A DNA stretch of 63,345 bases, filler included, from Asterionella formosa (GCA_002256025.1; 10 parts of 10 records of this genome joined end to end with filler, not necessarily neighbours in it), one strand, 5' to 3'. Shown: positions 10,381 through 61,824, numbered from the whole stretch's first letter. Numbers and translations are program-made. The notes: generated from the letters alone by a model not told the origin.

Positions 10381-10780
10381 AAAGCTACAGTTTCATAGTA
10401 CCAGCTTAGTAATAGGTACAGTTTCACTGTAGCCATGTCATGTTCCGACCGGGTATTGAGACAAGGGGAAGAAGGGAATGCTGGTAGGGCTTACGTACAG
10501 TTTCACAGTACCAGCGTAGTAATACGTACAGTTTCACTGTAGCCACGTCATGTTCCGACTGGCTGGGTATTGCTGAGACAAGGGGAAGAAGGGAATGCTG
10601 GTAGGGCGAACCTACAGTTTCACAGTACCAGCGTAGTAATACTAGGTACAGTTTCACAGTAGTAGCCACCACGTCATGTTCCGACCAGGTATTGAGACAA
10701 GGGGAAGAAGGGAATGCTGGTAGGGCGAACCTACAGGTTCACAGTACCAGCGTAGTAATAGGTACAGTTTCACAGTAGTA
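10381..10780. repeat. Tandem repeat, ~118-bp unit, ~3.5 copies
   Basis: GAGACAAGGGGAAGAAGGGAATGCTGGTAGGGC at 10458, 10575 and 10694. Its reverse complement is related to the array at 28583-29150. Confidence 0.9.
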
Positions 10781-13859: not shown

Positions 13860-14403
13860 ATTTTGCGGCTCGCTCCCATGTTTAGATTTCACATTCGTCA
13901 ATAATTATGATGTGACCTTTTAAGGTTACATAAAGTAATTTAATGATGTTTTGTTTGCACAAGTTTTGTATGTTGCGATTTTTCTGAAACCATATGTTGG
14001 GATTGCTTTGCTTTTGCTTGCTATAGCTGGATGTGGCACCAAACAGAAGTTGGAAAATCCAAAAGCTCCCAATTCCAGAGGGACAAAAAATAATGGATGC
14101 TTGTCAAAAACGGCTTTTCTGTTCGTATCCTTAAATATTATTGTGGTCTTTTTGCAATTTCTGGTTCCATCATTAGTTAGTCATTTGATTAGGATGGCAT
14201 CCATTGACCATCAATTGGGTCTTGATCCCCACCACTGGTGGAAGGGCATTATTAGATGGGTTTTCTGTTGTTTGCAAGAAGGAAGTGGTGATTTCCAAAT
14301 GCTATGCAATGTGCAATGTACAATGTCCAAACCTGCTTCAACCAGCTGAAAAACTTCCCTATGCTTGTCCGATCTTGGGGTTCCTATTTTCACTTTTTCT
14401 AAA

Positions 14404-14726
14404 AGATGCTACTTATAACATTGCATATCATACTTTGGTTGCTCCAAACATCGCTCATGTTCAATTTTTCTTGAAATTTTATGTGACAATCATTCTCGTG
14501 TGTTTGATGCTTGTTTTACCATCACTAGTGCAACATATGTACCAGTATTTCTATAGATTTTACAGTTTTTCTCGCTGTCATGCTTAATCTGCAATTTTTT
14601 TGCCAAAAAATTTGATGTACCCCCATATTGCCCCTTCATAAAAATTACCTAAGGAATTACTTAGAGCCTAAAATTACTTAGAAGTAGTGCCGGAATGGCA
14701 AGCAAGATAATAGGAATTGCTCACAT
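14404..14726 (+). repeat. Dispersed repeat or probable transposon end; inverted copy at ~57268-57566
   Basis: Shared GATGCTACTTAT..CAT.GCAT.TCATACTTTGGTTGCTCCAAACATC...AATTACTTAGAGCCTAAA..TTACTTA; both copies end at GGAATTGCT(C/G)ACAT. Confidence 0.8.
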
Positions 14727-25141: not shown

Positions 25142-25241
25142 NNNNNNNNNNNNNNNNNNNNNNNNNNNNNNNNNNNNNNNNNNNNTTAATTAATTAANNN
25201 NNNNNNNNNNNNNNNNNNNNNNNNNNNNNNNNNNNNNNNNN
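25142..25241. other. Artificial contig linker N44-TTAATTAATTAA-N44; also at 50366-50465, 51990-52089, 53614-53713, 55237-55336, 56860-56959, 58482-58581, 60104-60203, 61725-61824
   Basis: Identical 100-nt spacer with stops in all six frames; the downstream contigs decrease in length from 1524 to 1521 nt. Confidence 0.98.
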
Positions 25242-26955: not shown

Positions 26956-27645
26956 TGGTCTATTGATGCATGAGCGACATGGTTGCCGTGAATTAATAAT
27001 TAAGGTTGCTGCATTTGAACCCCTAGCTCGAGGTAGGGTTTAAAAAATAGTATTGAGTCAGACTAATCAAACATGTATTTTCCACATATAAATCAAATAT
27101 GTATAACGCTCAACGGAGCTTTCACCAATAGACACCCTTTCCATATGCTTAAATACAGCCTTCGGGCAAAGTAGGGGTGTGTTAAAGTATTACTTTTTGA
27201 TAGATCTATATCGTTAGACAAAAAAGACTATAGATAGAGACGTTCGTTTCTCTTTCCCTTTCTATATTCTTATTGTGAGTTTACTAATCTAGTTTTAGGT
27301 TGTTCTGTTTGAACAAACAAACAAAAAATTCTCCAAATGCTGTTTGCATTTCTAGAAACATACAATCATAGATAGACCCATGTTTTTCTCACACTTACTG
27401 ATCATAGGTTTTTAACCATGATCATTCATTTTCAAACTATTGGTCTTCCAAAATAGCTTATATCGTCTGGCTCATTATAGGCGGAGTAACAAGGTATAAT
27501 GTGTGGTTGATGAGAGCTTGGTACATCAAAGTTGACTCATTCGAATCGTTTGACTCATTTGACTCCGAGTCCTAACTACCGGTATGTAGATGAGCTCACT
27601 TTAACAGGGGTGTAGGTCCACTCTATATATCGTCAGGATATAGGA

Positions 27646-27786
27646 TCTGGCGAGAAACTGCAGAAAGGAACTTCGGTTTTAACTTCGGTTTTTTTACTAT
27701 TCTAAAAAGACTGGAAAATTCGGGGGAAATCTGTTTATTTGGCATAGTAGGGAAACCGAAGTTCCTTTCTGCAGTTTCTCGCCAGA
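27646..27786. mobile_element. MITE-like foldback with perfect 34-bp inverted repeats
   Basis: TCTGGCGAGAAACTGCAGAAAGGAACTTCGGTTT (27646-27679) has an exact reverse complement at 27753-27786. Confidence 0.7.
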
Positions 27787-28582
27787 AGTTATATACTGAT
27801 GCTATTTGAAAGTTACGTATGTATCTAAATCGCCATCAGACCCAGCCAACGTTTAGCTATCGTTGTCCAAAAACTCGACAAAATCGGCCTTTTCTAAGCT
27901 CGCCAAAATAGCGGAATCAGAGTTACTAAGTGCCAAAATGTCATCATAGGAATGGTACAGTAGTCGTGTGCCGGAATTTTTAAGTCCTAAAATCTCCTGT
28001 CCGAAAAATCCATTGTAAGTGCCCGCTTCCACATATATAATATGATTGGTGAAGGTGAATTACATTCCTCTGTTTGATTGGCCTGGTTTGCGAGGTCTTG
28101 CAAACCCATGCCAGCCACACTGGATCAACATGTAGCATTTTCTTGGGTGTTCTGACAGTCCGGTGCTATATTCACGACGGGTACCAGTAGATGATCATCA
28201 TTGGACATACGCGTACCGCTCCTTGAGTGCACTTTCAAATATTTGCCAACCCGCCTGGTTGTATACATGACACATAGTCGTCGATCGGAGTATAGATTGT
28301 AGTACTAGTATATGCACATCAAGCGATGTAGAATCAAAATACATATATAAACTAAGTGATTTGAATATGTCGAACGGATTCACTGCATAGCATAGAAGAT
28401 CGTTAATCGGAGTATAGACTGTCCATGAATATATGTTGATCGTGTTTTTAGGGCATATATACATACAGCGACATAGAGTGTTTATATATATATATTTAGC
28501 GATTTCGACAAGGATATGTACGTATTCGCAAATTTCCACTGATTTAAACATTTCAAATGGAATCATGTCTTTCAAAAATAGC

Positions 28583-29150
28583 TAAAACGTAGCTTTGCCC
28601 TACCACCATTCCCAGGCGTATTCCCCTTGTTTGAATAGGAATTACGACTTTCTTACTGTGAAAACATAGCTTTGCCCTACTACCACTTTCATACTGTGAA
28701 AGCGTAGATTGGCCCTACTAACAGCATTCCCGTATTCCGCCCCTTGTTAGAATAGGAATTACGACTTTCGTACTGTCAAAACGTAGACTTGCCCTACCAG
28801 CATTCCCGTATTCCCCTTGTTAGAATAAGTTTTTTGAAGCCGCGGTTGGTAGTATATAGTGTATATATAGGTATAATAGTGTACATATGCATCAGTAATG
28901 AAATAGTGTGTATGGAGCATGTCAGTGTGGTACGATCATTTACTGCTCCAGTACGGTCAAAACGTAGACTTGCCCTACCAGCATTCCCGTATTCCCCTTA
29001 TTAGAATAACATTTATGTAGCAGATACCGGTAAAATATATAGGTATAAGAGTCTAGTGTGTATGGAGTATGTCAGTATGGCATCACTTACTTCCACTCCA
29101 GTACTGTCAAAACGTAGACATGCCCTACCAGCATCCCCTTCTTCCTTCGT
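28583..29150. repeat. Irregular tandem array of (GTACTGT.AAAACGTAG.CTT)GCCCTACCAGCATTCCC..TTCCCCTTG
   Basis: Core GCCCTAC at about 28597, 28674, 28712, 28791, 28972 and 29122. Followed by 29268-29400, which is homologous (inverted) to 10060-10190. Confidence 0.85.
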
Positions 29151-41152: not shown

Positions 41153-42764
41153 GCCAAAGAAAACGGTGTAATTTGCAGCGTCACAATTAAGCTTGTAGAT
41201 ATATTTCGAAGATTTGGTTGGGAACCAATTCTGGTTTTCTTTGATTTCATGTGGCCCCGTCGGTTCAAGTCATTCGATGACGGCTAACACATCGCTGTTG
41301 AAAATGGGTTTCCTTCGTTTAAAAATGAGAAATCAACTGGTGGCAGCCTGTTCAGTGCAGTGTGTGTGTGTTTGCCTGATCGAGCTTGAGAGTACACCAA
41401 ATTTTAAAGAACGGGTCTATAGATCAGTCTCTTAACTGTTGAATAGAGATAGCGCACTGCCATTACCTCGGAAATTTTTAACAGGGATTCTGTCTTTGGT
41501 GAAGTAGAGTGAGTACCCTGTGGTCCATATCACAAGATATTACTACTCGTAATAGCAAAACTAACAGATTGAACTACATCTATTTCATTGGTAGAGATTT
41601 AGCTGCGAGAAGCAAAAAGATAGTTAAAAAATAGATGGCGAGAATACGGTTTCAGAGCATCGTTTGATTTGTTTTGAATGTCTCTATTGTCCTAGAATGT
41701 GTAAAAGTACCTTTTGTTCAACCATAACACAACCATTCAATTGACTTCCCTTTCCCCAGAAAGGGCGGAATCTGGTTATCTACGGTGCACCAGATATTGA
41801 CTGGAAGTAGTAAGTAAGCACCTGTATCCTTTGGTAAACCAAATAGAATATGTACTCATAAGTTTCACTTCATCAACGAAAATACTTTGTAGAATCTAAC
41901 ATCCAGATAACTTCCACCGGAATATAAATCGGCTTGAGCCCATGCAGATTCTCATGTCCTCGGTTCGGCAACATGAATTCGAGTGAGGGGTTACGGGAAA
42001 TGAAAGAATATGGTAATTAATGGAGTGGTAATTGAATATGGAACACATTAGACTACACGTATTTACTGCCAAGAGTTGGTAGATGCTACGTATCTGTAGC
42101 TCTCACACAGTAAAAGTTGCTAGAAAAATGTTTCTACACAATTTGTTTGTGTTACTTTGTTTGCTAATAGTTGTTTTTATAAAAGAGTGAGCTTAATGTA
42201 AATGTAAATTTGAATGTATAATTTTGAAACTTCCAAGCTCATGCATGTTTCAAAATAGAGGTGATCTTCGTTCATTTGTGTTCCCAACTTGAACTGAGAA
42301 TAAACTACATCCTCTTCCTAAATACACATTTGTCTTAATCTTGGCCTGTCTCAACTTAGGCCAGATGCTGTTTGATCGAAGACTGCTTACAGAATGATCC
42401 TGTTAATCATAACTAGATCATATCTAGTTTGCTTCTTTAATGTTCCTTGATTTTGCGGAAATATCTGTAATTGTCTAGTCAATCATTTATTGATTTGGCC
42501 TCTAGGTCCGATTGTCTTCTAGAGTCCAATTAATAGGTTAGAGAGAACTTCTCCTGAAAGTTCCTCTCTCAACTGTGGCATTTTACACGCGATACTTAAC
42601 CATGTGTCCTTGACTCAATCATCTAGTGGATTGTGGTACATGTTCCTAATCAGGTCACTTGAGACGAAAATATATTGACACTCTCATAAGCTGATCAGGA
42701 ATCAGGAATCTCTATGTGTTTCAACTCCAAGAAGCAAAAGGCTGAGATCTCATCAGCTCAGCCA

Positions 42765-43370
42765 TGTCAGAGTGTGTCTGTTAGGCTGTTGATGTCGACA
42801 GGTGTCTGAAGACTAGGTAGTCTGAGGAATGTCCAAACAGAAATAGTCAGGATTTATATAGCAGAAGAATCTGCAGACGAGCGGCGCGAGTTTGATCTTG
42901 ACTGGTCATTCCAGGGCAGTACTGGAGCTCGCTAGAGTGGGCGCCACATATTTCCACATGGTACCAGGTAGCGGGCTCGTTAGTACAAGTGGTACGAGGA
43001 TATACGTGAAAACCAGAGGTCGACAGTTGGAGTCCTCAGCAAGAACAGAAAAGAGAAAAAAGAAAAAAAGAGACGAAGAAAGAGAGAGGGCACTATGAGA
43101 ATTCCTGTAGGAAAGGATGTGTCAAGCATACACATTAGGATGATGTGGTATGTCGAGCATCAACAGGGGAGGGTGTCAGAGTGTGTCTGTTAGGCTGTTA
43201 ATGTTGACAGATGTCCGAAGACTAGGTAGTCTGAGGAATGTCTAAACGGAAATAGACAGGATTTATATAGCAGAAGAATCTGCAGACGAGCGGCACAAGA
43301 AAGATCTTGACTGGTCATTCCAGGGCAGTACTGCTGGAGTGCGCTAAAGTGGGCCCCATATATTTCAACA
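42765..43370 (+). mobile_element. TRIM-type non-autonomous mini LTR retrotransposon (606 bp)
   Basis: LTR1 42765-42958 and LTR2 43174-43370, both TGT...ACA; PBS-like TGGTACCAGGTAGCGGG at 42959; PPT AGGGGAGGG at 43165-43173; TSD GCCA at 42761-42764 and 43371-43374. Confidence 0.88.
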
Positions 43371-43867
43371 GCCATTCACAGCTGTTATTCATGGCAAGGA
43401 GTATTACATGGTGCTCCAGGTACTGGTATGAGTACCAGCAAGTTGCAGTAATTTTGCTGAACTAAGATGTAGCTCTCTTTATCCAATATTAAATTCTTCA
43501 TTTAAGCAAAATGACCGCATCTGGTCATTGGGAGTGCGTCAAAACTGAAAAGGTGCACATAAAATGTGTGCTACCGGACCTTGAAGTAACTTTGACACAA
43601 TTATCGTCTCATCCATTTCATCTTTCTCCATAATTAGTCTGTGTCATTGCTTTGTGAGTGCTTTGTATATTAGATCGGTTCATAGAATACTAAAATAGCA
43701 AACCAGAAATATTAAGTGTGAATAGCATAATGGTTTTTGAATTTGGTGCTAAGTAGGAAGCGTGTCCCATTCCCTCAATCCGTGTTTAAAATCCGGCCAG
43801 CTCCAATCTCTGGGTTCTGCAGCAGTCAAGTTGTGCTTTGCCGAGCTACTTTCGAGTCACTGCAAAT

Positions 43868-46800
43868 TTATGTTTGATGCATGGTGGCATGCGCTTCTTG
43901 CCCTGCCATTGCTGATTGAGAGGTGAATGCTGGAGTGTTGTCTGGCAGATGAAAGAATGTTGTTGTTGTAATCATCTTTTGACTGACAGATTTTGTAAAT
44001 TCCGCCACCTGTTTGCGGATGTAAATTAGAAACAGGTCTGATTTCCAATGTCTAATTAGCATGACCATGTAGATAGGAACTCCAGATAGAATCATGGCCA
44101 TCACTGCTGCTCTTTGTAACGAATTTAGGCCGATATCCTGTGGATCATGGCCAAGGTGATTGTGGCCAAATTCCATTGCAAGTTTCCAAACACGTTGGAT
44201 CACTGTCTCTGATTTAAGCGTATATGAGTGCATTCCCAACTGGTAGGTATTTATGCTGGATGCTATGCTTTGGCCGGGTATGGCCAATAAGCGATTGACG
44301 ATACATGCGCACTCCTTGTCAAATGGGGGACATGATTGGGTTGGTCATGTGTCTTGGTTGCGAAATGTGATTCAGATGATGTCCGCGAGGTGGTCGAGGT
44401 GCAGTGTTGGGTGATATCCATGCAGGCCTGGAAGAAATGTAGATCCTGCACACACAGAAATTTTGCTTGTCATTTGCCCCGGTGATTGATAAATACTCGC
44501 AGGACTGCATGGCGAAGAAGAATGCTACAATGACGAGAGGCCCAAGGCAAGCATCCCCTGGGGTCGCGTGTTTAAAATAAACTCGATTTTTAATGCTTGT
44601 TGGTGTTTAACGGCTGGATCAGTATGTTGGTACTAGGCAGAGAACTGTAGGCCTAGAATCCGGTCAGTTTTTCCCTGTAGGTTTGTATCGGGGTTGGGTG
44701 TGTCATTTCCCACAAAGGTCGCTGATAGAGATGCAATGGTATCACGGACTGTTGCTGATGCCAGCGGAGAGTCGCGATGCGCGCTGAACTCTGCTTGCCG
44801 AACGGCATGCGCGAAGGCGCCAACGAGTCGTGTGCGCTGTGCTGGGGAAAGTTTAGCGAGGAAGGGATCAGTGACATCACAGAATCCGATGGATGCAAGA
44901 AATTCTTGCCAAATGCGGAAGACGTGGCTGAGCTTCCCTTTGGTGTTAGCCTGAAGTCCGTGGGAGGAGCGGGCCTGATCTGCATCCACGAGGAAAGTCT
45001 GGAGACGATGTCTGTGGCGAGCGGCCAGATGGAGAAATTCGGGGGCATCTGATGATCAGCGGAATGTTGAAGGAGTTGTTGTGTTAGTTGCGTGGTCGAG
45101 AGGTGGTGGTCGCATGAGAGGGAGTCGGCAATCACATTCTCGACGCCAGCCAGGTATCCATTGACTGTAACTGCACGCCTGTGTCGTCTCGAGCGTCGCC
45201 GCAAGCCAGCAAGATGTTGCGAGGTGGATCGATTTTTCCGAGCCCTGGAAGCGTGCGCTCCCGCGGTGAAGCCAATAATCCGCAGTCGAGTTGTCGAGTT
45301 GGGAGAGTATGCAGTTGTCGGTTTTTATGTTGCCAACGGCGGTTTTAGTGACAATGGTGGTGATGGAGGCTAGGTATCATACTAGGGGGTTTAGCGACAG
45401 TCAGAATCTCAAATCGCCAGGCTTGGCCCAATGCGAGGGAGAAACGACTGATCCTGTGTTGGCAAGCATTGGTGCAAAGTAATATGGTGGAATGCGGAGA
45501 TTTAAACGATTTAGGCTGATCCCCTGTCTCAGCACAGTACGAAAGAAAACTAGCCATTGCCGCAGTTTCTCTTTCTGTAATTCTACTAATGTTATGCTTT
45601 TTCCGCCCAATCTTGCTCAGAGTTCAGCTCATCGGAGGTGACGGATGTTGCCGCAGGCTGTCGGGGTTTCTTACATTCAAGGCATGGTTCAACCGTCTAA
45701 TTGTAGTGGCCAAAGCATCACAATCAACTGTATTTGACTGTAGAGTTTGATCAATTTCGGCGTTCCAGGTCATGAGTTTGTCCTGAGGAAGGTGAAGCCA
45801 GAGTGTGCATGTGTTTATTTCTTCCCAGCCAAGAATTATCTTTGATTCTTCTGGGGAACCTTCTGCAATCATCTTGTTGTTGTTGAATGCTAGTAGATCA
45901 TTGCATTTCAGGGGTTTGTTCTCCGAAATGGATCTGCCTATTAGATGTAGCATAAGCAGTGTGATCCTCGAACCTGTCCATATCGGAGTAGTCTGATCCA
46001 GAAAACCTGTGAATAGATCATGTAGATAACGCTCCATGAAAAATGGGGCTAGGGCGGTCGTGATCTCCATGATTGTGGGTAGTGTAATGTTGCATGGTGC
46101 CTGGCTATCTTGGTAATGAGGTGTAGTGACGTATTTGTGCTGATGTGGGGATTCCAATGTGGGGTGTGATTTGGGATTCCATGACTCGCATTGTGAAAGC
46201 AGATTACATGTGTTGCACACTGATTTGGAGACGTCACTCCACATGCTTGAGTTTGGTGTGCCACCAAAGGTCATGCGTAGAGCGGCAAGGAGGGCAATAT
46301 CGTCGACAATGACTATGGCCTGTGACACGCTGATGCCCGATGTGTGTAGACGGCGGTACACAGCTGTAAAATCTAATTTAGTCATTCGAATTTGAGTGTC
46401 TGGGTGGAGGCAACATAGGTCCACTATGTAATGGATAAATCGCCTTAGTGAGGTTTAGTAGCAGCAAGGCGTCAAGGAGTCAAATATCACATGTGTGTTG
46501 ACCAATGTCCCCAGCAAGAACTCAAATGATTGGTTGTGAGTCAGCCAGTCTTTGAAAATTATTTACCCATGTTTGTTAATCATAGCTTGCGTGACTAATC
46601 TCAGTACCAGGTAGTGCGATTACAGCGTGAGGTAGTGCTCGAATTTTTTTGGGCGGGAGTGGTAGTTGCCAGCCGCATTCGACCTCTTTGCGTAGAAGTG
46701 CCTTGACGATGCACATCACTTTCAGTTTTGTAGAGGTGTGGTTTCCACGTGAAATGGCTTGTTCGAGATCATGTACCGTTAGTTGTTTATCATCTGGTAG

Positions 46801-48890
46801 TGATGTCAACGGAAATTCGACCCCAGTTGTGAGTGGAACAATCAATTGTGGCCAGAGTGGGTGGTAGTCCAGTGCATAGTGGTTGCAGTAGATTTACGAC
46901 GCGGGACTCGGACCCATTACTAAGTGGCAAGTTCGCCTCCTGGCTCGTGATTGCCCTTGTGATGTCCACATCGAATTGCGCTACAACTGTCCAGTTGTGT
47001 TCCGCTGCCTCGGTACTCCAATCGAAACGAAACATGGGTGCGCACATACCTGGTGAAAGGGTGTCCATGATGAGCGTGATACATCGAAGTAGCTAGCGTG
47101 CGCTCTATGTTATCTCGCAGAGTGGCGGAGGTGGGTCGACTATCGATATGTGGAGTCGGGTTTCTGGCATAGCGCAGTGCGGAGTCGTTGCATGTATGTG
47201 TCGGGTCTGCTTGGTGTGGCTTTCTGGCTGCTGTCAGCGCGACTGCCTCCTGTGACGTTGCTGATACCCGGTACAAATCGCTTTACGAGATTGACTTACC
47301 CATTATGGTTTGAATTGTCGCACCATGCGGGAGTGCCACGCTGTGCCGTTGTGTGTGCTGGGGGCGGTGGCAATGGTGGCCGCATGGGTGATGATGTAGG
47401 GAGTGGTGGCAAGTTTGGTGGTGTGACACCCGTTGGTGACGGAATATTATGGTTCCGAACCGGTACCCTGTCCAGAAATCGGGATCGTGAGGTGCATAAT
47501 AGTTTTGACATGTCATCCGTGGAGCTCTTTTCGTTCGGCATGACGGACACGGTAGGTGAGGCAATATGGCTGGGTATGTTCGAGTGGTACGACTAGTGTT
47601 GATAGACCGCAGTAGGCTGTTAACGGTTTCGTTAAATAATTCGTTACAGCTACTCGGTTGTGCCCTAATCAATTCGATGATTCCGGCATGGCTGCGCGAA
47701 TCGCCTCGTTGAAAAATGTCGTAAATGTCTTCTTGTTGTCACCTGTCAACTGAACATGCGCCTCTTTTCTATCACAGGTGTCAATACAGATCCCGGAGAT
47801 TGGCCAGCGGCAGCAGTTATTCGTGGAACCATTTACCTTGTTGGGTGCTTGGCGGAGAACGGATGACGGAAAAGCGTCGCAGTAAATGATGCCGTGCGGG
47901 AGGCGAAAAAGAGGGTCTGCCCAGGAGTTTGTCATGGCGTGGCCTCGAACAAAAGAGTTTTAGTGTGTGGGTGATTCCCGTCTGGCGAATGATAATTGTG
48001 TTGTCGATTTCGGGCATGATGGTGTATGTCTGCAAGGTTGTTCCTCCGATTGGTCTTCCCTGTTTCGCTTGAAGAGTAGAAAAAGTGCTGCGACCCAAGT
48101 ATGTAGCTAGTGGTGAGATCATGTGATTGCCCACCACGATCTGTCATTATTGCTGCGAATAATCTAAGACATGAAAGTCCATATCATGAATGGATTTTGC
48201 GTCTATCGAATTCCTCCAGAACGCTTGGATCATGTTGTCCACCATGATGGTAATTTGATGGGCGAAGAAACAGATGTCCAAATTGGAGCAATGTCGGTAT
48301 GTAGCGCGGTTCTCTTCAATGTGTGTCAGCCATGTACACAGTTGATCCGCCATGAAACAATTGCCCAAAACAAACAAGACAATGGCGATCATATTCTTGA
48401 TGGTAGTTTCGAAGTCAGTAACAGTTTGTGCAAGATCAATCAGCAGTTTCTTGTTGCCCAGTCTTTTATGATCTGGGTATAGCAATCTCCATCACCCGCC
48501 GCATCAATAGTAGTATTGGAAATGATTTCAATGTCTGAGGAGGAAACCATGCTGTTAGATTCTGACAGAAGCTTAAACAGGCTGATGTGTGAAGGTACCT
48601 TGGTGGGATCGTGGTTAAATTGAAGTTGAATAATGCACAATGTTGTAAACAGATCCAAATGTAGGTCTTGAAAATTAGGATTGATTGAAGGTATTCTGCC
48701 ATAAATTGTTGTGCTGCTGAAGTATTTGAGCTGAGTGAGAGGATTGTAGCCAGGGATTGAATGGGCTCTGTTACAATATCTTCATCATGAGCAGCCATTA
48801 AGCTAAGAATCTGGTCTTGAAGGAATTTAGTTTGCTTGTCCCCCCAAGCTCTTGAAGAGGAGGGTGTATTGGAGGATCTAGCCTCCACTA
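43868..48890 (-). mobile_element. Decayed tyrosine-recombinase retrotransposon (Ngaro/DIRS-like): gag-like, RT, RNase H, YR
   Basis: C/H finger CCRWPISGICIDTCDRKEAH; RT KLDFTAVYRRLH, LRMTFGG.PN, YLHD (decayed YxDD), ILGW; RNase H YLAGVENVIADSLS; overlapping YR frame with FFAMQSCEY, IGLNSLQ.AA.MAM, HWKSDLFLIYIRKQ. Confidence 0.88.
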
Positions 48891-49535
48891 GCTAGCCAAT
48901 CAGTATTCGTAGCAAGATTTGATGCTGCACTCATGAGTGCTGCGGCTACCTGCGCCATACTTTTGTCTCAAGATTTAAGCGTATCCGTGTTCCTGGGAGT
49001 GGTCTGCCCTGCCTCCACCTGGGAACTTGTGGGCAATGCAATGTGTGAGTCAGTATATCACTTGATGATGTAGTGATATATATAAGAGATTGAGTCTTAA
49101 ATGGAAGGTAATGAAAACTAGAAATTTCCAGAAGATTACAGATTGTAGAAGGATCCAAGGTTGTGTAGAACTTAAGTGACAAACTGTGTGAAAGGTTGAG
49201 AAGGGTGGATCTTGTAGGGATCCAAGGTGGTGGATCTTGTAGGGATCCAAGGTTGAAAGAAAGGAATGAATGTAAGTTTGGTTGACAAAACTGATGTTAT
49301 TCAATTATATGAGCTAATTCTAGTTGGCAAAATGAGGAAGGTGAGGAAGTGCCAGAAGCAACTAATGAAGTGCTGGCATCATAGAATAGGTAGTGAATCT
49401 ACAGAATCCTAAGGGAAAGGTAGAGAAATGCCAGTAGCAAGATCAGAGGTGCTGACAGTAAGCTGTGTATGAAATGTACAGCCTGGTACCATAGACCTGC
49501 CTACTTGGTACCAGCAGCATTGTGCTGGTGCTGAA

Positions 49536-49719
49536 GGCAATACACACCCAAGGTGGTCTCTTGCCTGTGAGTATACATGTGTTGGAGGCTGGGTGGCGCG
49601 AGTAGCTTGACCGTACGAGTGGCGCCCCCGGCGCTGCGAGAAGGTCACCCTACAAGTGCCATCCCAGTCGAGTACACATGTATACGAGAAGGCAAGTAGC
49701 CGCCGAGAAGGGTATTGTT
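49536..49719 (+). ncRNA. Candidate structured RNA: long rod-like imperfect hairpin
   Basis: Nested helices GGTGGT/GCCGCC, CTTGCCT/AGGCAAG, GTATACATGTGT/ACACATGTATAC, GGCTGGG/CCCAGTC, TGGCGC/GTGCCA, GTAG/CTAC, TGACC/GGTCA, GTGGCGCC/GGCGCTGC; helix deviations read as G-U on the + strand. Confidence 0.55.
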
Positions 49720-50465
49720 GAGGCAATTCCCGCTCTAGCCATCGTCGCGTCATTCGCTTACCTACTGCCCACAAATTTAGCATAAATGTCAATTTTAGCC
49801 TACTATTGCCCATCATATAAAATATATTTTGGATATTTCCTATCTTCACCTCGAAAATTGCCAAAGGTCCGATATTGCCCTTCATTAAAATATATTTTGT
49901 ATATTTCATATGTTCGCATTTTGGCAAGACAACAGACACCAATTGCCCCTCGGTTTTCCAGCCCTGGGATTGCCAAAATCGGCAAGGGGTCTACTTAAGG
50001 AAACTAATTTATATACTAAACAGATTTTGATAATTTATATCTAGAATTCACCTCGTTTTTGTTCGTCTCCTGAAAAGTGGACTCTGGCAATTCACCTTTC
50101 ACCATGCCAATCGTCGTCCATCATGACCGGTTTGAAGCGAAATCAGTTCCGCAATGACGCCAGTAGCGATTCTTTGCCTAACGGATGCGGTTGATTGTTG
50201 GATTGCTTGTCTTCTCGAGGTATTCATGTAGTCGCATTGTCCATATTTCGTCGGACGAACGATGATATCGATACATCTGATGTTGGTGGCAAGTTTTTGC
50301 TCCGGTCATGTATGTAATGATGCTTAACGGATATTCTACTGGTACCGGCAGTCATCTAGTCTACANNNNNNNNNNNNNNNNNNNNNNNNNNNNNNNNNNN
50401 NNNNNNNNNTTAATTAATTAANNNNNNNNNNNNNNNNNNNNNNNNNNNNNNNNNNNNNNNNNNNN

Positions 50466-51950: not shown

Positions 51951-52297
51951 GCCTCGATCATTTTAGCAAAATATACGAACCCAACTTTANNNNNNNNNNN
52001 NNNNNNNNNNNNNNNNNNNNNNNNNNNNNNNNNTTAATTAATTAANNNNNNNNNNNNNNNNNNNNNNNNNNNNNNNNNNNNNNNNNNNNTTTGGAATTGG
52101 AATCACTATTGCCAGCACGATGACGTATGTAGCACTAAAGTTTGGATACTGCTCGTTTAGCAAAATTACCGCAACTTGCCGGTATGCTGAGTACCCTGAT
52201 ACCAGGTACCTGGTACATGGTACCGGTACAACCATCTTGCTTCATGTGCATATTTTTATGCATCATCACGCACATCCCGGCCTTTCTACGACTAATC

Positions 52298-52817: not shown

Positions 52818-53816
52818 GTATATATACTGCCTTGTATAGAGTGGGTAATACCATCACCTCTAATAGCTTTGTCATGAAATGAAATCCCTTGTTGTACCTC
52901 CCCAGTTTTCTAGTAATATGCATGTTAACATGCAAACCATGAAACTACTAGGAGATAAAATAGTTAATAACAATTGAGGTACTAAACAAGCAAAGTAAAT
53001 ACTAAAGACATTGCAAATTTCAAAATTTCAATGAAATTATCTAAACACACAGTAGTGAATGCCCACCAGTGCAACAATCTTTTATCAGATGCATGAGTAT
53101 GTATGTCACTGTTTGGTCTTGGCCATATGGCTCATAAATTCGGTCTATTGCTGTGTTTGCAGGAGTAGTATCACCAGCACAAACTAGCATTGCAACTGTC
53201 TCCCACAGAATTTAGCACCAGCAGTAAATAAATTTCAGTCTACTCCTTTCAACCCTTGTAAATAGCCTTTCTGGCTTTTGCCCTCCAATCCCAACCTCCC
53301 ATTCCTGTCAAAGAACAACTAGCATCTTTGGTGTCTTAGCCACTACTATTGTACTAGACTGGATCAACAGCCATTTTACTTTCCAAATCGTTTTACTTTG
53401 GGTTAAAGTACTGAAAGACTATTTAGGTTTAAGCAAATGATGGAATCTAATTTAATCAAGACAACGTTAAGCAATATTTTTCTTAAACTTTGTAGACAAG
53501 CATGCACAGTCCTTAATTCATATGTAGATGACTGCATGTGTCACTACAGAAGGAAAGAGATTTACCAGCATTAGTCTACTGGTACTATGTTAACAATATG
53601 CTGGTAATAACAGNNNNNNNNNNNNNNNNNNNNNNNNNNNNNNNNNNNNNNNNNNNNTTAATTAATTAANNNNNNNNNNNNNNNNNNNNNNNNNNNNNNN
53701 NNNNNNNNNNNNNGAATTTTTATTTACTCATTAATAGTTACTAACAAAATGGTTATTTGTTTTTAATCAAGTACAGCCATTTGCAAATAACCGGACGCTG
53801 GTGTCGTTTCTTTTGC

Positions 53817-54462: not shown

Positions 54463-54810
54463 AGAACATATGGTGTTCTGTTGCTCGCTTACCGGTATTA
54501 CTCCGACTATTGGTTTTTAGTTTTACGATCATACAATCCTAGAACTATGATGATTTATTGTCCCACGGTAGTAGCAACAGTCCTGAATATTTGGTATTCC
54601 ATTGGTTTTTAGTTTTACGATCATACGATCCTAAAATTATGATGATTTACTGTCCCGCTGCAGTAGCAACAGTCATGAACATATGGTGTTCTATTTGTTT
54701 TTAGTTTTACGATCATATGATCCTAAAACTATGATGATTTACTGTCCCACTGCAGTAGCAACAGTCCTGAACATATGGTGTTCTGTTGCTAGTTTACTAC
54801 TCCGACTACC
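54463..54810. repeat. Tandem repeat, ~91-bp unit, three copies, each with a ~30-bp palindrome
   Basis: Units start at ~54509, 54601 and 54692; TAGTTTTACGATCATATGATCCTAAAACTA at 54702-54731. Confidence 0.9.
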
Positions 54811-55383
54811 CCCACCAGCATATCACTTACTACCTGCTACTGGTACTCTGTATATATATATGATATATTGTTATTGTCATATGATGTACCGGTACACATG
54901 AAGAGCTCCCGCCCAAAAAGGGGGCTTAAACAATTTGCCACCATAACCCTGGCGGTTATGACTTACACGGTTCACGTAGTCGTGGAAAACAATGGACATA
55001 TAGTGCATTGAGTATTTTCGAATTATGTATATGCGAGTATGATCATCTCAACCATATCAGATGTTCCATATCGAGAGCGCCTTTGAATTTTATAAAATGT
55101 ATTACGCTATATATATATATATATTTACAAATTTTATTACTATATTCATGGCCAATATATTTTTCAAATCGTTCTGTCACGTTAACAATCAATGCCTGCT
55201 GCTTCATGAAAAGATACGTCGTAGTAAAGCACATGANNNNNNNNNNNNNNNNNNNNNNNNNNNNNNNNNNNNNNNNNNNNTTAATTAATTAANNNNNNNN
55301 NNNNNNNNNNNNNNNNNNNNNNNNNNNNNNNNNNNNTCATGGAAATCATACAACGCCAGAGGATAGTGGGAGAGCCGACCTAA

Positions 55384-55860: not shown

Positions 55861-58581
55861 TCTGGCAGGAATGCAAGGCACGCATCAGATTCGACATTTG
55901 GGTAACAAGCGCCTATGTTGCTCCCCTCACGGGATGGAAACTTGGCCGTAGTTGAGGGGCCCTCTCCCTTGATGTGCTGGCGGAATCTATCTATGTATTT
56001 CGTCCACACAAGGTGACCAATGTCCATCCACTCACCGAAATGTGGTTAAACTAGGTGGAAGCCTGGGGCAAAGAAGATTGGGTACAAATGCACCACCAAC
56101 AACAATGGGTGCGAAAAGAGTTATAAAAAAAGGAAAAAAGAAATAAAAATTGAAAAAATAAAGTTAAAAAATAAATATAAAAAAAGGGGAAGAAAAGGTA
56201 CCCGGCCCTGGGAGGGAAATGGCAAGTAGCAACACAACTTAGTACTGTTTTGTGCTCAACAGTGAAGTGATTGCCACTACCTCCCCCACCGAACAACGGG
56301 GAGGGGATAGGATTCTTGATGCTATGGGTGGCATGCACTGGAGTTCTGTCTCCTACCCCACTCCCACCCGAGTATTCACTATCGTGACTACTCGCGGGAC
56401 CTCTCTCTAAGCCTGGCAGGTCGAGATGCGGTTCCGGGCACGGGGAGACCAAAACAGTGCCGAAACAAACATTTGCTTCGACAAATTATAGGAATCGATG
56501 GAGTGTCGTTCCACCCGCAGCTCCTCGGGGGCTGAACCAAGAAATTGGGACAGCTGAATTTGTGCAGGAGACTGGAGATTCTGCCAGAACAGCGTTTGTG
56601 GGCCCTTTCCAAGGGGGGACACAAGGAGAGGAGGAAAAGGAACCAGGAGGAGAAGGAAGCATGGGAAGACCACAGGGTGGTGACCAGAGAGTAGGGGAGA
56701 ACAGGGGACCACATGGGGAGTTTCCAACACGGCTCCCGGCGCGGCTCATACGACAGGATGCAGTCCGAAATGACCAAGTCCAGTTGTGTGTTTGGGGGGA
56801 AGAGGGCAGTCTCACTATATTCTGGGAACGCCTCTCTTACCTCTGTCGTGCATCGACGANNNNNNNNNNNNNNNNNNNNNNNNNNNNNNNNNNNNNNNNN
56901 NNNTTAATTAATTAANNNNNNNNNNNNNNNNNNNNNNNNNNNNNNNNNNNNNNNNNNNNCAAGGGGAATGGATGTTGAGGCCCTCTGATGACATTGACAC
57001 GGATGGGGCCATTTGGGTAGTTGTAGTGCTGACCGGCGGTAGTACTGACCACACAGGAAGATTGGTCGGTTGCAAGAAGTATTGGATTGCAAGAGGTATT
57101 GGACTGCATCTTGTGGAGCCATGGTTGAATAATAATAGTTAGAAATAAATGAAAACATACATGTTGGAGAAATCGAAATTGTGAGATCACAAACTGTTTC
57201 ACGGACAAAATTCGTATTGCTATTATGATTGATTGTTCTCATTTTATTTAATTCTCGCCATTCATATATGTCAGCAATTCCCGCTCCAGCTATCGTTTTG
57301 CCATTTGGGTACTTTTAAGTAATGTTTAGGCTCTAAGTAATTTCTTAAGTAATTTTTTTTTAAGGGCAATTTTGGGCACATCGAATTTTTAGGCAATAAA
57401 ATTGCCGATTTTAGCATGACAACCAGAATAACGGTAATATGCATAGAGATGGTACAACAAGCGTAAAACACACGAGAATGATTGTAACAACATGCAACAT
57501 AAATGAAAATTGAACATGATGTTTGGAGCAACCAAAGTATGAAATGCGATGTAATAAGTAGCATCAAATAAGAAATAGAATAAAAATTTTGGGTTAGAAA
57601 TGAAATAAAAAAAGAGTTCCAATGGAGACGTATGCATTGTGAATCATTGTAGTACTTACACAGGCAACATTGACTTTCCATCACCATACAAGCGAAGACC
57701 GAAAGAAGAAGGAAAAAGCTCAACCCAATGTAGACCTGCATCGTTATTTAGCGTCAATGGTCTGGTTGCTGCAACCATGCGCATCGCTGTAGTAGCCTGG
57801 CACCAGTAGCAGTATTTCCGCCACAGTCATTCCTCTCCGCCCACCAAACAGGCAACCCTGATCATTCCATTCTGTGCAAGCATGATTGCCACGCTGCTCC
57901 ATCACTTTTGACTCTCTCTAGCTGAGTATTTATGTAAGCTTGTGATACGAGCTTGTAGTAGCAATGTAGCAAAGTGCGTTAGAACAAGAAAAGCATTGCT
58001 TGGCGGCAATATTGACATCATGGTAAACGACTATACAAATCAACAAATATGATCAACAACAATACTCGCTGGCATGAGACCACCTCAGGCGTGTATTGCC
58101 TTCAGCAACCTCATGCAACCTGTTGTGCTTCAAACGTTCATTGATGAAATGGGCAATTGAAAGTCATTTTAAAACAAATCCCAATAAGTCATGTGTTTTC
58201 TTAATATCTAAACAAATATTATTTTCATGATCCCAATCAACAAAAGCGAAATGACGAATCTTGGCAGCAGCGGCACACCATTTCAGACTTAAGCTTTATG
58301 AAAAAGCTTAAGTCTGGATGCTGCCAAGTTTTGCCAAGAGATGAAGAAGTCGATAATCGCAAATTTCGGCGATTTCATTATATCGGAGATTCACCACTCA
58401 CATACCTGTTTGCAGAAACCTTCACAGGTTTTGTTCTCCCTGCTGAGATCACAAGAAAACGGTTAAGCCAGTTGTACATATNNNNNNNNNNNNNNNNNNN
58501 NNNNNNNNNNNNNNNNNNNNNNNNNTTAATTAATTAANNNNNNNNNNNNNNNNNNNNNNNNNNNNNNNNNNNNNNNNNNNN

Positions 58582-60103: not shown

Positions 60104-60329
60104 NNNNNNNNNNNNNNNNNNNNNNNNNNNNNNNNNNNNNNNNNNNNTTAATTAATTAANNNNNNNNNNNNNNNNNNNNNNNNNNNNNNNNNNNNNNNNN
60201 NNNTCTTTCTCTATGTATTATATACATGAATCAGTAGCTTAGCCTCGGCATTTTGACGTTTCCGTGTTTATATGAAATAATTATTTAGGTCACTATGACA
60301 AGTCGTGATACTGTCGATTCAAAGTGTAA

Positions 60330-61723: not shown

Positions 61724-61824
61724 TNNNNNNNNNNNNNNNNNNNNNNNNNNNNNNNNNNNNNNNNNNNNTTAATTAATTAANNNNNNNNNNNNNNNNNNNN
61801 NNNNNNNNNNNNNNNNNNNNNNNN

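What the first reader, a model, noticed from the sequence alone, without database searches (positions are those of the whole stretch)
49536..49719. Rod-like RNA hairpin with strand-consistent G-U pairs and repeated GAG(AA) internal loops
Seen: eight or more nested helices form a ~184-nt rod. The in-helix deviations I traced are all G-U on the + strand and would be A-C on the - strand. The helices are separated by short purine-rich loops: GUGA/GAGA, UGGA/GAGU, GUACGA/GAGAA, GA/AA. CGAGAAGG recurs three times on the 3' arm (~49637, 49685, 49704). Inference: a decaying DNA inverted repeat should carry random mismatches, so this looks selected at the RNA level, with iterated tandem-GA protein-binding sites. 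I could not match it to SRP, U3, RNase P/MRP or hammerhead motifs. It lies ~650 bp beyond the 5' end of the YR retroelement, so it may be a novel ncRNA, a small-RNA precursor or a retroelement cis-element.
Basis: partly seen in the sequence, partly recalled or inferred. Interest (0 to 1): 0.8.

Follow-up and report, generated by a model that had tools for sequence, protein, structure and literature searches.

The report
Giant end hairpin of diatom repeat
The rod-like hairpin is real, but it is the end piece of a very abundant, non-coding mobile repeat of a probable diatom rather than a gene for a new RNA, and its helices are joined by a regularly repeated CGAG/CGAG purine mismatch that fits folding of only one strand.

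Summary
The hairpin at 49536-49719 is real. The + strand folds to -102.4 kcal/mol (z -9.5) and the - strand to -80.1. Rfam has no match.

It is not a single-copy RNA gene. In public runs, 49530-50365 is a highly repeated family. Eleven copies share the left edge T-(G/A)CTGAA-GGCAATAC, mostly next to unrelated DNA. The hairpin is therefore the end module of an interspersed, non-coding mobile element.

The family's intact form has CGAG ten times on one strand and CTCG never. These form five symmetric CGAG/CGAG junctions (C-G, G.A, A.G, G-C) about 16 nt apart, plus a purine loop at the foot.

The G-U argument is weaker than stated: G.T 8 against A.C 3 when counted without a folding program. Covariation is not significant.

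The layout, a stem-loop outside a 23-nt terminal repeat, most resembles non-autonomous Helitron-like-2 elements, but the hairpin is far larger. Whether it acts as RNA or as single-stranded DNA is unresolved. It is not part of the neighbouring retroelement.

The parts
49530..49724 (+). Whole rod: the hairpin of the finding (49536-49719) plus its foot, where GCU 49530-32 pairs with GGC 49722-24 across a GAA/GA purine loop. The apex CCC is at 49627-49629.
   Evidence: RNAfold gives -106.4 (+) against -80.4 (-). DNA parameters give -45.4 against -38.1. Helix list.
49529..49535 (+). Constant heptamer T-GCTGAA at the left edge of every copy. It is the candidate target site or recombination core. It can pair with UUGAGGCA at 49718-49725.
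   Evidence: T-(G/A)CTGAA is present in 11 of 11 copies, mostly next to unrelated upstream DNA. TGCTGA is already present at an uninterrupted counterpart site, window 57271 (-) against L001. Weak support from 2 contigs at 49533 (table 7).
49549..49552 (+). CGAG junction 1, 5' arm (mutated to CAAG in the window). Partner is CGAG 49704-49707.
   Evidence: Family copies L001 and L007 have CGAG here.
49568..49571 (+). CGAG junction 2, 5' arm (TGAG in the window). Partner is CGAG 49685-49688.
49584..49587 (+). CGAG junction 3, 5' arm (GGAG in the window). Partner is CGAG 49669-49672.
49599..49602 (+). CGAG junction 4, 5' arm. Partner is 49653-49656 (CAAG in the window, CGAG in L001, TGAG in L007).
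49616..49619 (+). CGAG junction 5, 5' arm. Partner is CGAG 49637-49640. It flanks the apical 8-bp helix.
49722..49744 (+). 23-nt terminal motif GCAATTCCCGCTCTAGCCATCGT directly after the hairpin. In hairpin-less units the same motif lies 3 nt from the terminus, in inverted orientation.
   Evidence: Alignment of ends. L001 402-656 is self-inverted.
49720..50365 (+). Non-coding body of the element, cut by the end of the contig (linker from 50366). It is rich in TTGCC/GGCAA boxes.
   Evidence: High depth up to 50365. 90.6-96.9% identity to L001, L004, L007 and L008. No conserved ORF. 14 TTGCC boxes in 836 nt (49530-50365, hairpin included), 16.7 per kb against 2.98 per kb in the window.
58062..58108 (-). 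Second copy of the left edge in the window: TGCTGAAGGCAATAC plus most of the 5' arm, joined to GTATTGTT. This is a deletion derivative that has lost the 3' arm.
57271..57699 (-). Hairpin-less related unit ending ...GATAGCTGGAGCGGGAATTGCTGA. It is 93.2% identical to the DNA that lies directly upstream of the hairpin in L001. An older copy lies at 14386-14709 (+).

Best explanation
The hairpin is the terminal stem-loop module of a very abundant, non-coding, interspersed mobile element of a probable diatom.

Shown:
- The element begins at 49529/49530, always behind T-(G/A)CTGAA.
- It continues through the hairpin into a 23-nt terminal repeat (GCAATTCCCGCTNNAGCYATCGT) and a body full of TTGCC boxes.
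- Hairpin-less relatives carry the same 23-nt motif 3 nt from their end.
- In two loci such an end faces the hairpin in inverted orientation, which lengthens the rod.
- In its intact form the rod is a stack of helices of about 12 bp joined by five symmetric CGAG/CGAG junctions. Each junction is a C-G pair, tandem G.A/A.G, then a G-C pair.
- On the opposite strand these junctions would be pyrimidine mismatches.

Inferred:
- The module works as a folded single strand of the + polarity.
- The enzyme that moves the element recognises it. The tandem-GA junctions and two duplex TTGCC boxes (helices at 49536 and 49561) would serve as landmarks.
- The fixed TGCTGA next to it is the target, possibly read by pairing with the foot of the hairpin.
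- The most likely class is a non-autonomous Helitron-like-2 (Helentron/HINE-type, 'reverse' layout) rolling-circle element. There the stem-loop outside the terminal repeat acts on the displaced DNA strand.

My odds by layer are: end module of a mobile repeat 0.9, selection on one folded strand 0.75, single-stranded DNA and rolling-circle class 0.35-0.4. The confidence given for this explanation (0.45) is for the statement as a whole.
For: Structure:
- Both strands were folded.

Repeat family:
- 54,857 contigs of run X1 lie on the 2,866 bases laid.
- Summed depth jumps from about 8 thousand (48940-49035) to about 0.35 million (49036-49515) and to 1.2-3.2 million from 49516 onwards.
- There are loose ends with diverse flanks at 49529. 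In X1 these are 43 contigs with agreement 0.37.

Common edge:
- 11 of 11 copies carry T-(G/A)CTGAA-GGCAATAC. These are the window twice and the 9 of 9 metagenome loci.
- In 9 of the 11 the upstream DNA is unrelated. In 2 (L001, L008) it is an inverted element end.

Family members:
- L001 and L007 carry full hairpins and 700+ nt of body at 94.6% and 90.6% identity.
- L003, L004 and L009 carry a short form that lacks 49568-49668. It is also seen as 25 contigs in X1 (table 7).

CGAG motif:
- 10 CGAG against 0 CTCG in L001, with 0 of 20000 shuffles as high.
- All twelve GA steps have a pyrimidine 5' and a purine 3'.

Terminal motif:
- It is shared by hairpin-bearing and hairpin-less ends.
- L001 402-656 is self-inverted over 263 nt.

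Uninterrupted counterpart site:
- L001 1-436 is 93.2% identical to window 57699-57271.
- After TGCTGA the window reads CATATATG, while L001 reads the hairpin.

Published layout:
- Canonical HLE2 has 12-16 nt terminal inverted repeats and a stem-loop after the right repeat.
- HINEs are non-coding and outnumber their autonomous partners. Their subTIRs lie 2-4 nt from one terminus, and a palindrome lies near the other (PMC4067079, passages).
Against: - Both ends of a single element were never seen. The contig ends at 50365, and the one locus that runs further (L008, +311 nt) shows no end.
- No Rep/helicase or any other autonomous partner was found, and no genome is held.
- HLE2 elements insert between T and T and have 5-10 bp palindromes. 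Here the constant flank is TGCTGA and the palindrome has 64-72 pairs.
- Covariation is not significant. One pair of 72 shows a double change, and 74 of 500 shuffles do as well. High similarity of copies may reflect recent amplification only.
- G.T against A.C is only 8 to 3.
- The short L009 form folds slightly better on the opposite strand, -35.6 against -32.5.
- RNA libraries do contain the element, so an RNA form is not excluded.
- A direct repeat GCTGAAGGCAAT / GTTGAGGCAAT brackets the hairpin. The hairpin may therefore be a secondary insertion that is merely carried along.
Confidence: 0.45

Rival explanations
1. RNA cis-element of a non-autonomous retroelement. The + strand transcript starts at or near the hairpin. 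The GA-punctuated rod binds a Gag-like or reverse-transcriptase protein supplied by an autonomous retroelement, for example the tyrosine-recombinase retroelement family next door. It would serve packaging, dimerisation or template recognition.
For: The RNA fold is very stable and strand-biased. G.U pairs and tandem GA are typical of structured RNA (established knowledge, recalled). Six RNA libraries hold 23-33% of the sampled words, and RNA contigs cover the hairpin. A degraded element with RT-like and YR-like ORFs lies at 43868-48891 on the - strand (Atlas leads only).
Against: There is no poly(A), no LTR-type ends and no tRNA/7SL/5S head. RNA contigs run on into diverse flanks at 49529, so they look like read-through or DNA carry-over rather than a discrete RNA (table 7). 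The fixed TGCTGA flank and the terminal inverted repeat are DNA-transposon traits. The element shares nothing with the neighbouring retroelement.
Confidence: 0.2
2. Site-specific integration by a tyrosine recombinase (Crypton- or DIRS-like logic). A circular form carries the junction ...AATTGC-TGAAG-GCAAT..., two inverted ATTGC half-sites around a short spacer. It recombines with TGCTGA sites in the genome and leaves the core on both sides. The hairpin, and its extension by the flanking inverted repeat, stabilises the junction in single-stranded cDNA or DNA.
For: TGCTGA lies at both ends of window 58108-57271 (-). It is also present at the uninterrupted counterpart site. The tail-to-head junction GGGAATTGC-TGAA-GGCAAT occurs in L001 and L008. 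ATTGCC/TTGCC boxes are strongly enriched. A YR-like ORF is in the window (lead only).
Against: It is not shown that 58108-57271 is one element. No circular form and no recombinase linked to these termini has been seen. Known YR elements are not described with such a hairpin (recalled; no search was made for this).
Confidence: 0.15
3. By-product or silencing substrate. The hairpin is a small foldback insertion carried by the repeat. If transcribed, it serves mainly as a long-hairpin source of small interfering RNAs against the family.
For: A 12-nt direct repeat brackets the hairpin. Deletion derivatives (short and mini forms) persist. Transposon hairpins are common small-RNA sources (established knowledge).
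Against: Ten CGAG in one polarity at regular spacing is not expected of a foldback made by DNA duplication. Helices of 5-12 bp broken by mismatches are poor Dicer substrates (inference). No small-RNA data were available.
Confidence: 0.07
4. Stand-alone structured non-coding RNA gene.
For: Very low folding energy. No known family.
Against: It belongs to a highly repeated family. The common edge and body continue for at least 640 nt beyond the hairpin. Truncated and deleted copies exist.
Confidence: 0.03
5. Neutral, decaying DNA inverted repeat with no single-strand function.
For: The excess of G.T over A.C is not significant, 8 to 3. Covariation is not significant.
Against: CGAG 10 against CTCG 0. 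Purine.purine is 16 against pyrimidine.pyrimidine 3 in L001. The mismatches sit at five regularly spaced junctions rather than at random.
Confidence: 0.02

Closest known systems
Non-autonomous Helitron-like-2 elements (Helentron/Helitron2 derivatives: HINE, DINE-1; 'HLE2-reverse' and proto-Helentron layout)
   Same: Both are non-coding, very high in copy number and carry a short terminal or subterminal inverted repeat a few nt from the terminus. Both have a stem-loop outside that repeat at one end only. The stem-loop at the 5' end is described for HLE2-reverse and for proto-Helentron of oomycetes, which are stramenopiles like diatoms. Tandem or abutting copies occur (PMC4067079 and PMC11417382, passages; here).
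   Different: The palindrome is 64-72 bp (184-195 nt) instead of 5-10 bp, and it is punctuated by CGAG/CGAG junctions. The constant flank is TGCTGA rather than T|T. The second end and the RepHel partner were not seen.
IS200/IS605-family ends and REP/RAYT hairpins of bacteria (recalled, not from a call)
   Same: Imperfect hairpin at the element end that is meaningful on one strand only. Insertion directly 3' of a fixed short sequence. Here that sequence can pair with bases at the foot of the hairpin (T49529-A49725 to A49535-U49719, from the sequence).
   Different: Those are bacterial elements with hairpins of about 20 nt, moved by Y1 HUH transposases. No eukaryotic counterpart is known to me. 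No transposase was found here.
Tandem sheared G.A motifs, 5'-pyrimidine-GA-purine-3', as in (rGGCGAGCC)2 and d(ATGAGCGAAT)2 (recalled from the structural literature)
   Same: All twelve GA steps of the rod sit in a pyrimidine-GA-purine context (CGAG x10, UGAA, UGAG). This is the context in which tandem G.A is stable in RNA and in DNA.
   Different: Those are model duplexes. A natural rod with five or six such junctions at spacing of about 16 nt is not known to me. No specific literature search settled this (one search found nothing relevant).
Kink-turn / box C/D RNAs
   Same: Tandem G.A pairs beside a helix. A sub-threshold archaeal C/D hit (sR14, 23.9 bits against gathering score 38) lies on the L009 flank plus the element start.
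   Different: There is no 3-nt bulge, and the junctions are symmetric 2x2. The hit lies mostly in a flank that is specific to one locus.

Membership tests
Helitron-like element 2, non-autonomous (HINE) | Short inverted repeats (12-16 nt) at or near both termini of one element | tested here: inconclusive
   The 23-nt motif occurs after the hairpin and, inverted, 3 nt from the end of hairpin-less units. It flanks the hairpin on both sides in L001 and L008. Both ends of one element were never seen.
Helitron-like element 2, non-autonomous (HINE) | Stem-loop outside the terminal repeat at one end | tested here: met
   The hairpin 49530-49724 lies between the terminus and the motif at 49722-49744. 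Its size is far above the published 5-10 bp.
Helitron-like element 2, non-autonomous (HINE) | Insertion between T and T, no target duplication | tested here: inconclusive
   A T precedes (G/A)CTGAA in 11 of 11 copies, but the whole heptamer is constant. The other flank was not seen.
Helitron-like element 2, non-autonomous (HINE) | Autonomous Rep/helicase partner with the same termini | not testable with these tools
   No genome is held. The long ORFs of the window give no Rep or helicase domain.
Any Rfam RNA family (SRP, snoRNA, ribozymes, miRNA) | Covariance-model score at or above the gathering threshold | tested here: not met
   0 hits in the whole window. Only chance-level hits near the hairpin. 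Only sub-threshold C/D hits in 5 loci.
Hammerhead retrozyme or other ribozyme-bearing repeat | Self-cleaving ribozyme motif in the repeat | tested here: not met
   No ribozyme family at E up to 10 in 49000-50300, or at E up to 1 in L001, L004, L007, L008 and L009.
Terminal repeat or internal complementary region of the neighbouring YR retroelement (DIRS-like) | Same copy number and continuity with the retroelement; a counterpart at its other end | tested here: not met
   Depth differs by more than 100-fold and a different repeat lies between them. There is no second copy near 42000-43868.
SINE / non-LTR retroelement | Pol III head or 3' poly(A)/microsatellite tail; variable target duplications | tested here: not met
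   No tRNA/7SL/5S match. The ends read ...GGGAATTGCTGA without a tail. The flank is constant.
Kink-turn | 3-nt bulge followed by tandem G.A | tested here: not met
   The junctions are symmetric. The foot loop is GAA/GA.
Hairpin small-RNA precursor | Phased or size-specific small RNAs from both arms | not testable with these tools
   Only contigs of long-RNA libraries were available.

The most novel reading that the evidence does not exclude
A eukaryotic (diatom) mobile-element family that moves through a single-stranded intermediate. It would choose its target, TGCTGA, by base pairing with the foot of a 190-nt hairpin built from CGAG/CGAG sheared-GA junctions. This is a guide-by-pairing logic known so far from bacterial IS200/IS605 elements, here with a modular rod that may load several copies of the mobilising protein.
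Probability: 0.1. Interest if true: 0.8.

Novelty: new variant of a known kind. Interest (0 to 1): 0.45.

Why it matters
If the reading holds, this repeat shows how far the terminal stem-loop of a rolling-circle-type or site-specific transposon can be elaborated. It would also offer a natural array of tandem sheared G.A junctions that could be studied as DNA and as RNA.

The repeat is a dominant component of a widespread freshwater and estuarine alga. It appears in DNA and RNA libraries of 16 studies, so it can be mistaken for a conserved non-coding RNA in metagenomes and metatranscriptomes. It also breaks assemblies: the contig ends inside it.

For the scan, the lesson is that a striking fold with a very low z-score still needs a copy-number check before it is called an RNA gene.

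Tried and rejected
Searches that found nothing:
- No whole genome is held for the window.
- Earlier notes of the scan gave nothing by place, sequence or words.
- The viral contigs and genome-contig scans with a 3'-arm pattern gave 0 hits each.
- Literature searches for diatom + MITE + hairpin (5 papers, none relevant by listing) and for tandem GA + sheared + transposon (listing irrelevant) gave nothing.

Protein checks:
- Pfam on 12 frames around the hairpin gave no family above its threshold. This includes the - strand frame 49409-49990 that crosses the hairpin.
- The body has no ORF conserved in L008.
- tblastx and blastn of all loci against the retroelement region found only one 109-nt match (L002 against 43419-43522), which I judged an unrelated repeat.

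Run shares that are no evidence of absence:
- Poly(A) RNA runs of the same samples as X1 and X7 held 0.03 and 0.00 of the words.

Depth ratios:
- RNA depth relative to DNA depth in the paired runs X16 and X3 looks far lower for the hairpin element than for the retroelement (table 2).
- The tool states that contig depths cannot rank regions, so I draw nothing from this.

Ideas rejected:
- An LTR reading (TG...CA ends) was rejected, because the flank is constant and no LTR-type duplication is seen.
- The sub-threshold archaeal C/D hit in L009 was rejected as chance.
- The mir-449 and SNORA27 hits upstream were rejected as chance, at E 1.8 and 8.6.

Full report
**1. The observation**

The stretch 49536-49719 folds on the + strand into one unbranched rod.
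- It has 64 pairs in 11 stacked helices and a CCC apex.
- MFE is -102.4 kcal/mol. Dinucleotide shuffles average -60.2 (sd 4.4), so z = -9.5, and 0 of 200 shuffles fold as well.
- The - strand folds to -80.1, z -5.55.
- With three more pairs at the foot, the rod spans 49530-49724 and reaches -106.4, against -80.4 on the other strand.

Rfam gives nothing at gathering level in the whole window. Near the hairpin it gives only chance-level hits, mir-449 at E 1.8 and SNORA27 at E 8.6, both upstream.

**2. The setting**

The window is not one continuous piece of genome. It is a chain of contigs joined by 100-base linkers, each a run of N, TTAATTAATTAA, and another run of N.
- The linkers lie at 25142-25241 and 50366-50465, then about every 1.6 kb.
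- This also explains the apparent 1.6-kb 'repeat'.
- The hairpin's contig ends at 50365, 646 bases after the hairpin.

The genes are eukaryotic: mitochondrial carrier, ArfGAP, protein kinase and DUF6824. An Atlas lead names Bacillariophyta. I take the organism to be a diatom, without proof.

The frames at 43868-48891 on the - strand give no Pfam hit. They do give Atlas leads to reverse transcriptase (RVT_1 on 12% of one cluster) and to Phage_integrase/DUF3504 clusters.

**3. It is a repeat, and the hairpin is its end**

The run search found part of 49300-49950 in 20 runs of 16 studies: freshwater, lake, estuary, wastewater and drinking water. Six of these runs are RNA libraries.

Four runs were laid on 47500-50365.
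- In run X1, 54,857 contigs lay on the stretch.
- Summed word depth was about 1-8 thousand over the retroelement part.
- It was about 0.35 million over 49036-49515.
- It was 1.2-3.2 million from 49516 to the contig end.
- The tool warns that such sums are not copy numbers, so I use them only to say that the family is very large and diverse.
- At 49529 many contigs run on into unlike sequence. In X1 these are 43 contigs with consensus agreement 0.37. That is what an insertion edge looks like.

One scan of metagenome contigs with a 5'-arm pattern returned 9 loci. Adding the two window copies, 49529 (+) and 58108 (-), gives 11 copies.
- All 11 of 11 read T-(G/A)CTGAA-GGCAATAC at the edge.
- Upstream DNA is unrelated in 9 of them.
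- In 2 (L001, L008) it is an inverted element end.

Downstream, L001, L007, L004 and L008 follow the window for 356-755 bases at 90.6-96.9% identity. No frame is conserved.

The hairpin is thus the end module of an interspersed, non-coding element whose other end lies beyond the contig.

**4. Anatomy of the intact module**

The better-preserved copies L001 and L007 show what the window copy has partly lost. CGAG occurs ten times on the + strand, five per arm, and CTCG never occurs. No shuffle of 20000 reaches ten, and the shuffle mean is 1.25. The window copy keeps six.

The ten CGAG pair up as five symmetric junctions:

| Junction | 5' arm | 3' arm |
|---|---|---|
| 1 | 49549 | 49704 |
| 2 | 49568 | 49685 |
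| 3 | 49584 | 49669 |
| 4 | 49599 | 49653 |
| 5 | 49616 | 49637 |

- Each junction is a C-G pair, G.A, A.G, then a G-C pair.
- They are spaced 15-19 nt apart and separate helices of unrelated sequence.
- The foot has a GAA/GA purine loop between GCU/GGC and the first long helix.
- All twelve GA steps have a pyrimidine before and a purine after. From the structural literature (recalled) this is the context in which tandem sheared G.A is stable, in RNA and in DNA.
- The read data add that nearly all depth has G at 49606, for example 1,065,437 of 1,075,969 in X1. That G would pair with C49649, so the consensus is better paired than the window copy.

Shorter forms exist.
- L003, L004 and L009 lack 49568-49668. 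This is a deletion between the near-identical CGAGTAYACATGT on the two arms. It leaves a 94-nt hairpin with MFE -32.5 to -37.9.
- The window's second copy (58108-58062, -) has lost the 3' arm.

**5. How strong is the case for one folded strand?**

A folding program can only place G-U inside helices, so A.C is counted as a loop.

Aligning one arm against the reverse complement of the other gives these counts:

| Opposition | L001 | Window |
|---|---|---|
| Watson-Crick | 64 | 62 |
| G.T | 8 | 9 |
| A.C | 3 | 3 |
| G.A | 14 | 12 |
| Other purine.purine | 2 | 4 |
| Pyrimidine.pyrimidine | 3 | 4 |
| Bulges | 4 | 4 |

- Eight against three is not significant.
- Sixteen purine.purine against three pyrimidine.pyrimidine is significant, and so is CGAG 10 against 0.
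- These mismatches sit at regular junctions, not at random. A decaying palindrome does not explain them. Nor do direct repeats for a duplex-binding protein, because the segments between the motifs are inverted while the motifs are direct.

Covariation adds little. On six sequences and 72 pairs, 97.6% of cells pair. Only one pair changes on both sides (49561/49695, U-A to A-U in L009), and 74 of 500 shuffles do as well. The copies are too few and too alike.

DNA energy parameters keep the asymmetry: -45.4 (z -5.6) against -38.1 (z -4.3). The sequence therefore says 'one strand folds' but does not say whether that strand is RNA or DNA.

**6. The terminus and its relatives**

Directly after the hairpin comes GCAATTCCCGCTCTAGCCATCGT (49722-49744). 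The same motif, inverted, ends a hairpin-less unit 3 nt before its terminus.
- In window 57271 (-) the unit ends ...GATAGCTGGAGCGGGAATTGC-TGA and is followed by CATATATG.
- An older copy lies at 14386-14709.

In L001 and L008 such an end lies directly upstream of the hairpin. The junction reads ...GCGGGAATTGC-TGAA-hairpin-GTTGAG-GCAATTCCCGC..., and the inverted repeat lengthens the rod. L001 402-656 is self-inverted over 263 nt.

L001 1-436 is 93.2% identical to window 57699-57271, including DNA outside the unit. I read the two as the same site with and without the hairpin element. TGCTGA is present in the uninterrupted site, and the element follows it.

Two contigs of X3 hint at the same for the window's own site. 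They share the window sequence up to 49533 and then differ (table 7). This is weak.

The heptamer T-GCTGAA can pair with UUGAGGCA at the foot, from T49529-A49725 to A49535-U49719, with G.A/A.G in the middle (from the sequence). A 12-nt direct repeat (GCTGAAGGCAAT / GTTGAGGCAAT) brackets the hairpin.

The body is crowded with TTGCC/GGCAA boxes.
- There are 14 in 836 nt, or 16.7 per kb, against 2.98 per kb in the window.
- ATTGCC occurs 61 times in the window against 40.8 expected.
- Two of these boxes are formed as duplexes inside the rod, in the helices at 49536 and 49561.

**7. What it most likely is**

A stem-loop outside a short terminal inverted repeat, at one end only, on a non-coding element that outnumbers everything else, is the published layout of non-autonomous Helitron-like-2 elements.
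- HINE and DINE-1 have 12-15 bp subTIRs 2-4 nt from one terminus and a palindrome near the other. They outnumber their partners (PMC4067079, passages).
- Canonical HLE2 has the stem-loop after the right repeat. [quoted passage not shown]

On the strand that folds best, our hairpin is at the 5' end, like the 'reverse' layout.

I therefore rank a rolling-circle-type element first. Its displaced single strand would fold into the rod, which the mobilising enzyme would read as an end signal. I put this at only 0.35-0.4, for these reasons:
- The palindrome is roughly ten times larger than any described in the passages I read.
- The constant flank is TGCTGA rather than T|T.
- Neither the second end nor a Rep/helicase was seen.

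The rivals are:
- an RNA cis-element of a non-autonomous retroelement;
- a tyrosine-recombinase core (ATTGC-TGAAG-GCAAT at the junction, TGCTGA on both sides of window 58108-57271);
- a carried-along foldback that feeds small RNAs.

A stand-alone RNA gene and a neutral palindrome are contradicted.

**8. Relation to the retroelement**

The hairpin element and the retroelement are neighbours only.
- A third repeat (49036-49529) lies between them, with its own depth step.
- Nothing from 49030-50365 recurs at the retroelement's far side.
- The loci share only one 109-nt match with the retroelement region.

**9. Verdict**

The interpretation as a novel RNA gene or a cis-element of the neighbouring retroelement does not hold.

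What remains unusual is the architecture of the rod itself and the fixed TGCTGA beside it. I rate it a new variant of a known kind, the terminal stem-loop of a non-autonomous mobile element, of moderate interest.

Noticed in passing
window 25142-25241, 50366-50465, 51990-52089, 53614-53713, 55237-55336, 56860-56959, 58482-58581, 60104-60203, 61725-61824: 100-base linkers (a run of N, TTAATTAATTAA, a run of N) join separate contigs. The last 13 kb of the window is a chain of contigs of about 1.5 kb. The '1.6-kb repeat' and the many 100-nt inverted repeats of the repeat finder are this artefact.
   Followed up: yes
window 49036-49529: A separate high-copy repeat between the retroelement and the hairpin. 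It holds a 25-nt tandem duplication (49204-49253) and three small GCCAG...CUGGC-type hairpins. In the lake RNA run X16, one 190-nt contig over 49048-49237 has depth about 3,500.
   Followed up: partly
window 43868-48891 (-): Degraded retroelement with many frame breaks. It has no Pfam hit. Atlas leads point to reverse transcriptase and to Phage_integrase/DUF3504 (tyrosine recombinase) clusters, one of them with Bacillariophyta members. RNA contigs of X16 cover 47776-48536.
   Followed up: partly
window 42765-42924 and 43174-43333: Two direct copies of 160 nt (93% identical), 409 nt apart, just beyond the recombinase-like frame. They are possibly the split direct repeats of that retroelement. 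The flank of L002 matches 43419-43522.
   Followed up: no
L009 1936-2029 (stored coordinates) and the following 400 nt: A diverged short-hairpin copy is followed by a second copy of the hairpin's 3' half and by three copies of a unit of about 45 nt (ATGACAATTTTATCC...). The rest of L009 is similar to window 26999-28578, so it comes from a related genome.
   Followed up: partly
L009 2006-2061 (-): Sub-threshold match to archaeal box C/D sRNA models (sR14, 23.9 bits, E 0.004). It spans the flank plus the first 24 nt of the element and is probably driven by UGAUG/CUGA-like motifs.
   Followed up: no
window 28571-29145; 10323-10778; 54507-54788: Other local tandem or dispersed repeats: 50-100 nt units with TTGCCC at 28.6-29.1 kb, units of about 110-119 nt at 10.3-10.8 kb, and 92-nt units at 54.5-54.8 kb.
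   Followed up: no
L008 312-965 (hairpin-forward orientation, i.e. reverse complement of the stored locus): The whole 650-nt body of the element lies inverted directly upstream of the hairpin, giving body(reversed)-hairpin. This is either a head-to-head pair of elements or a long foldback form. The contig ends inside the hairpin, so the other side is unseen.
   Followed up: partly
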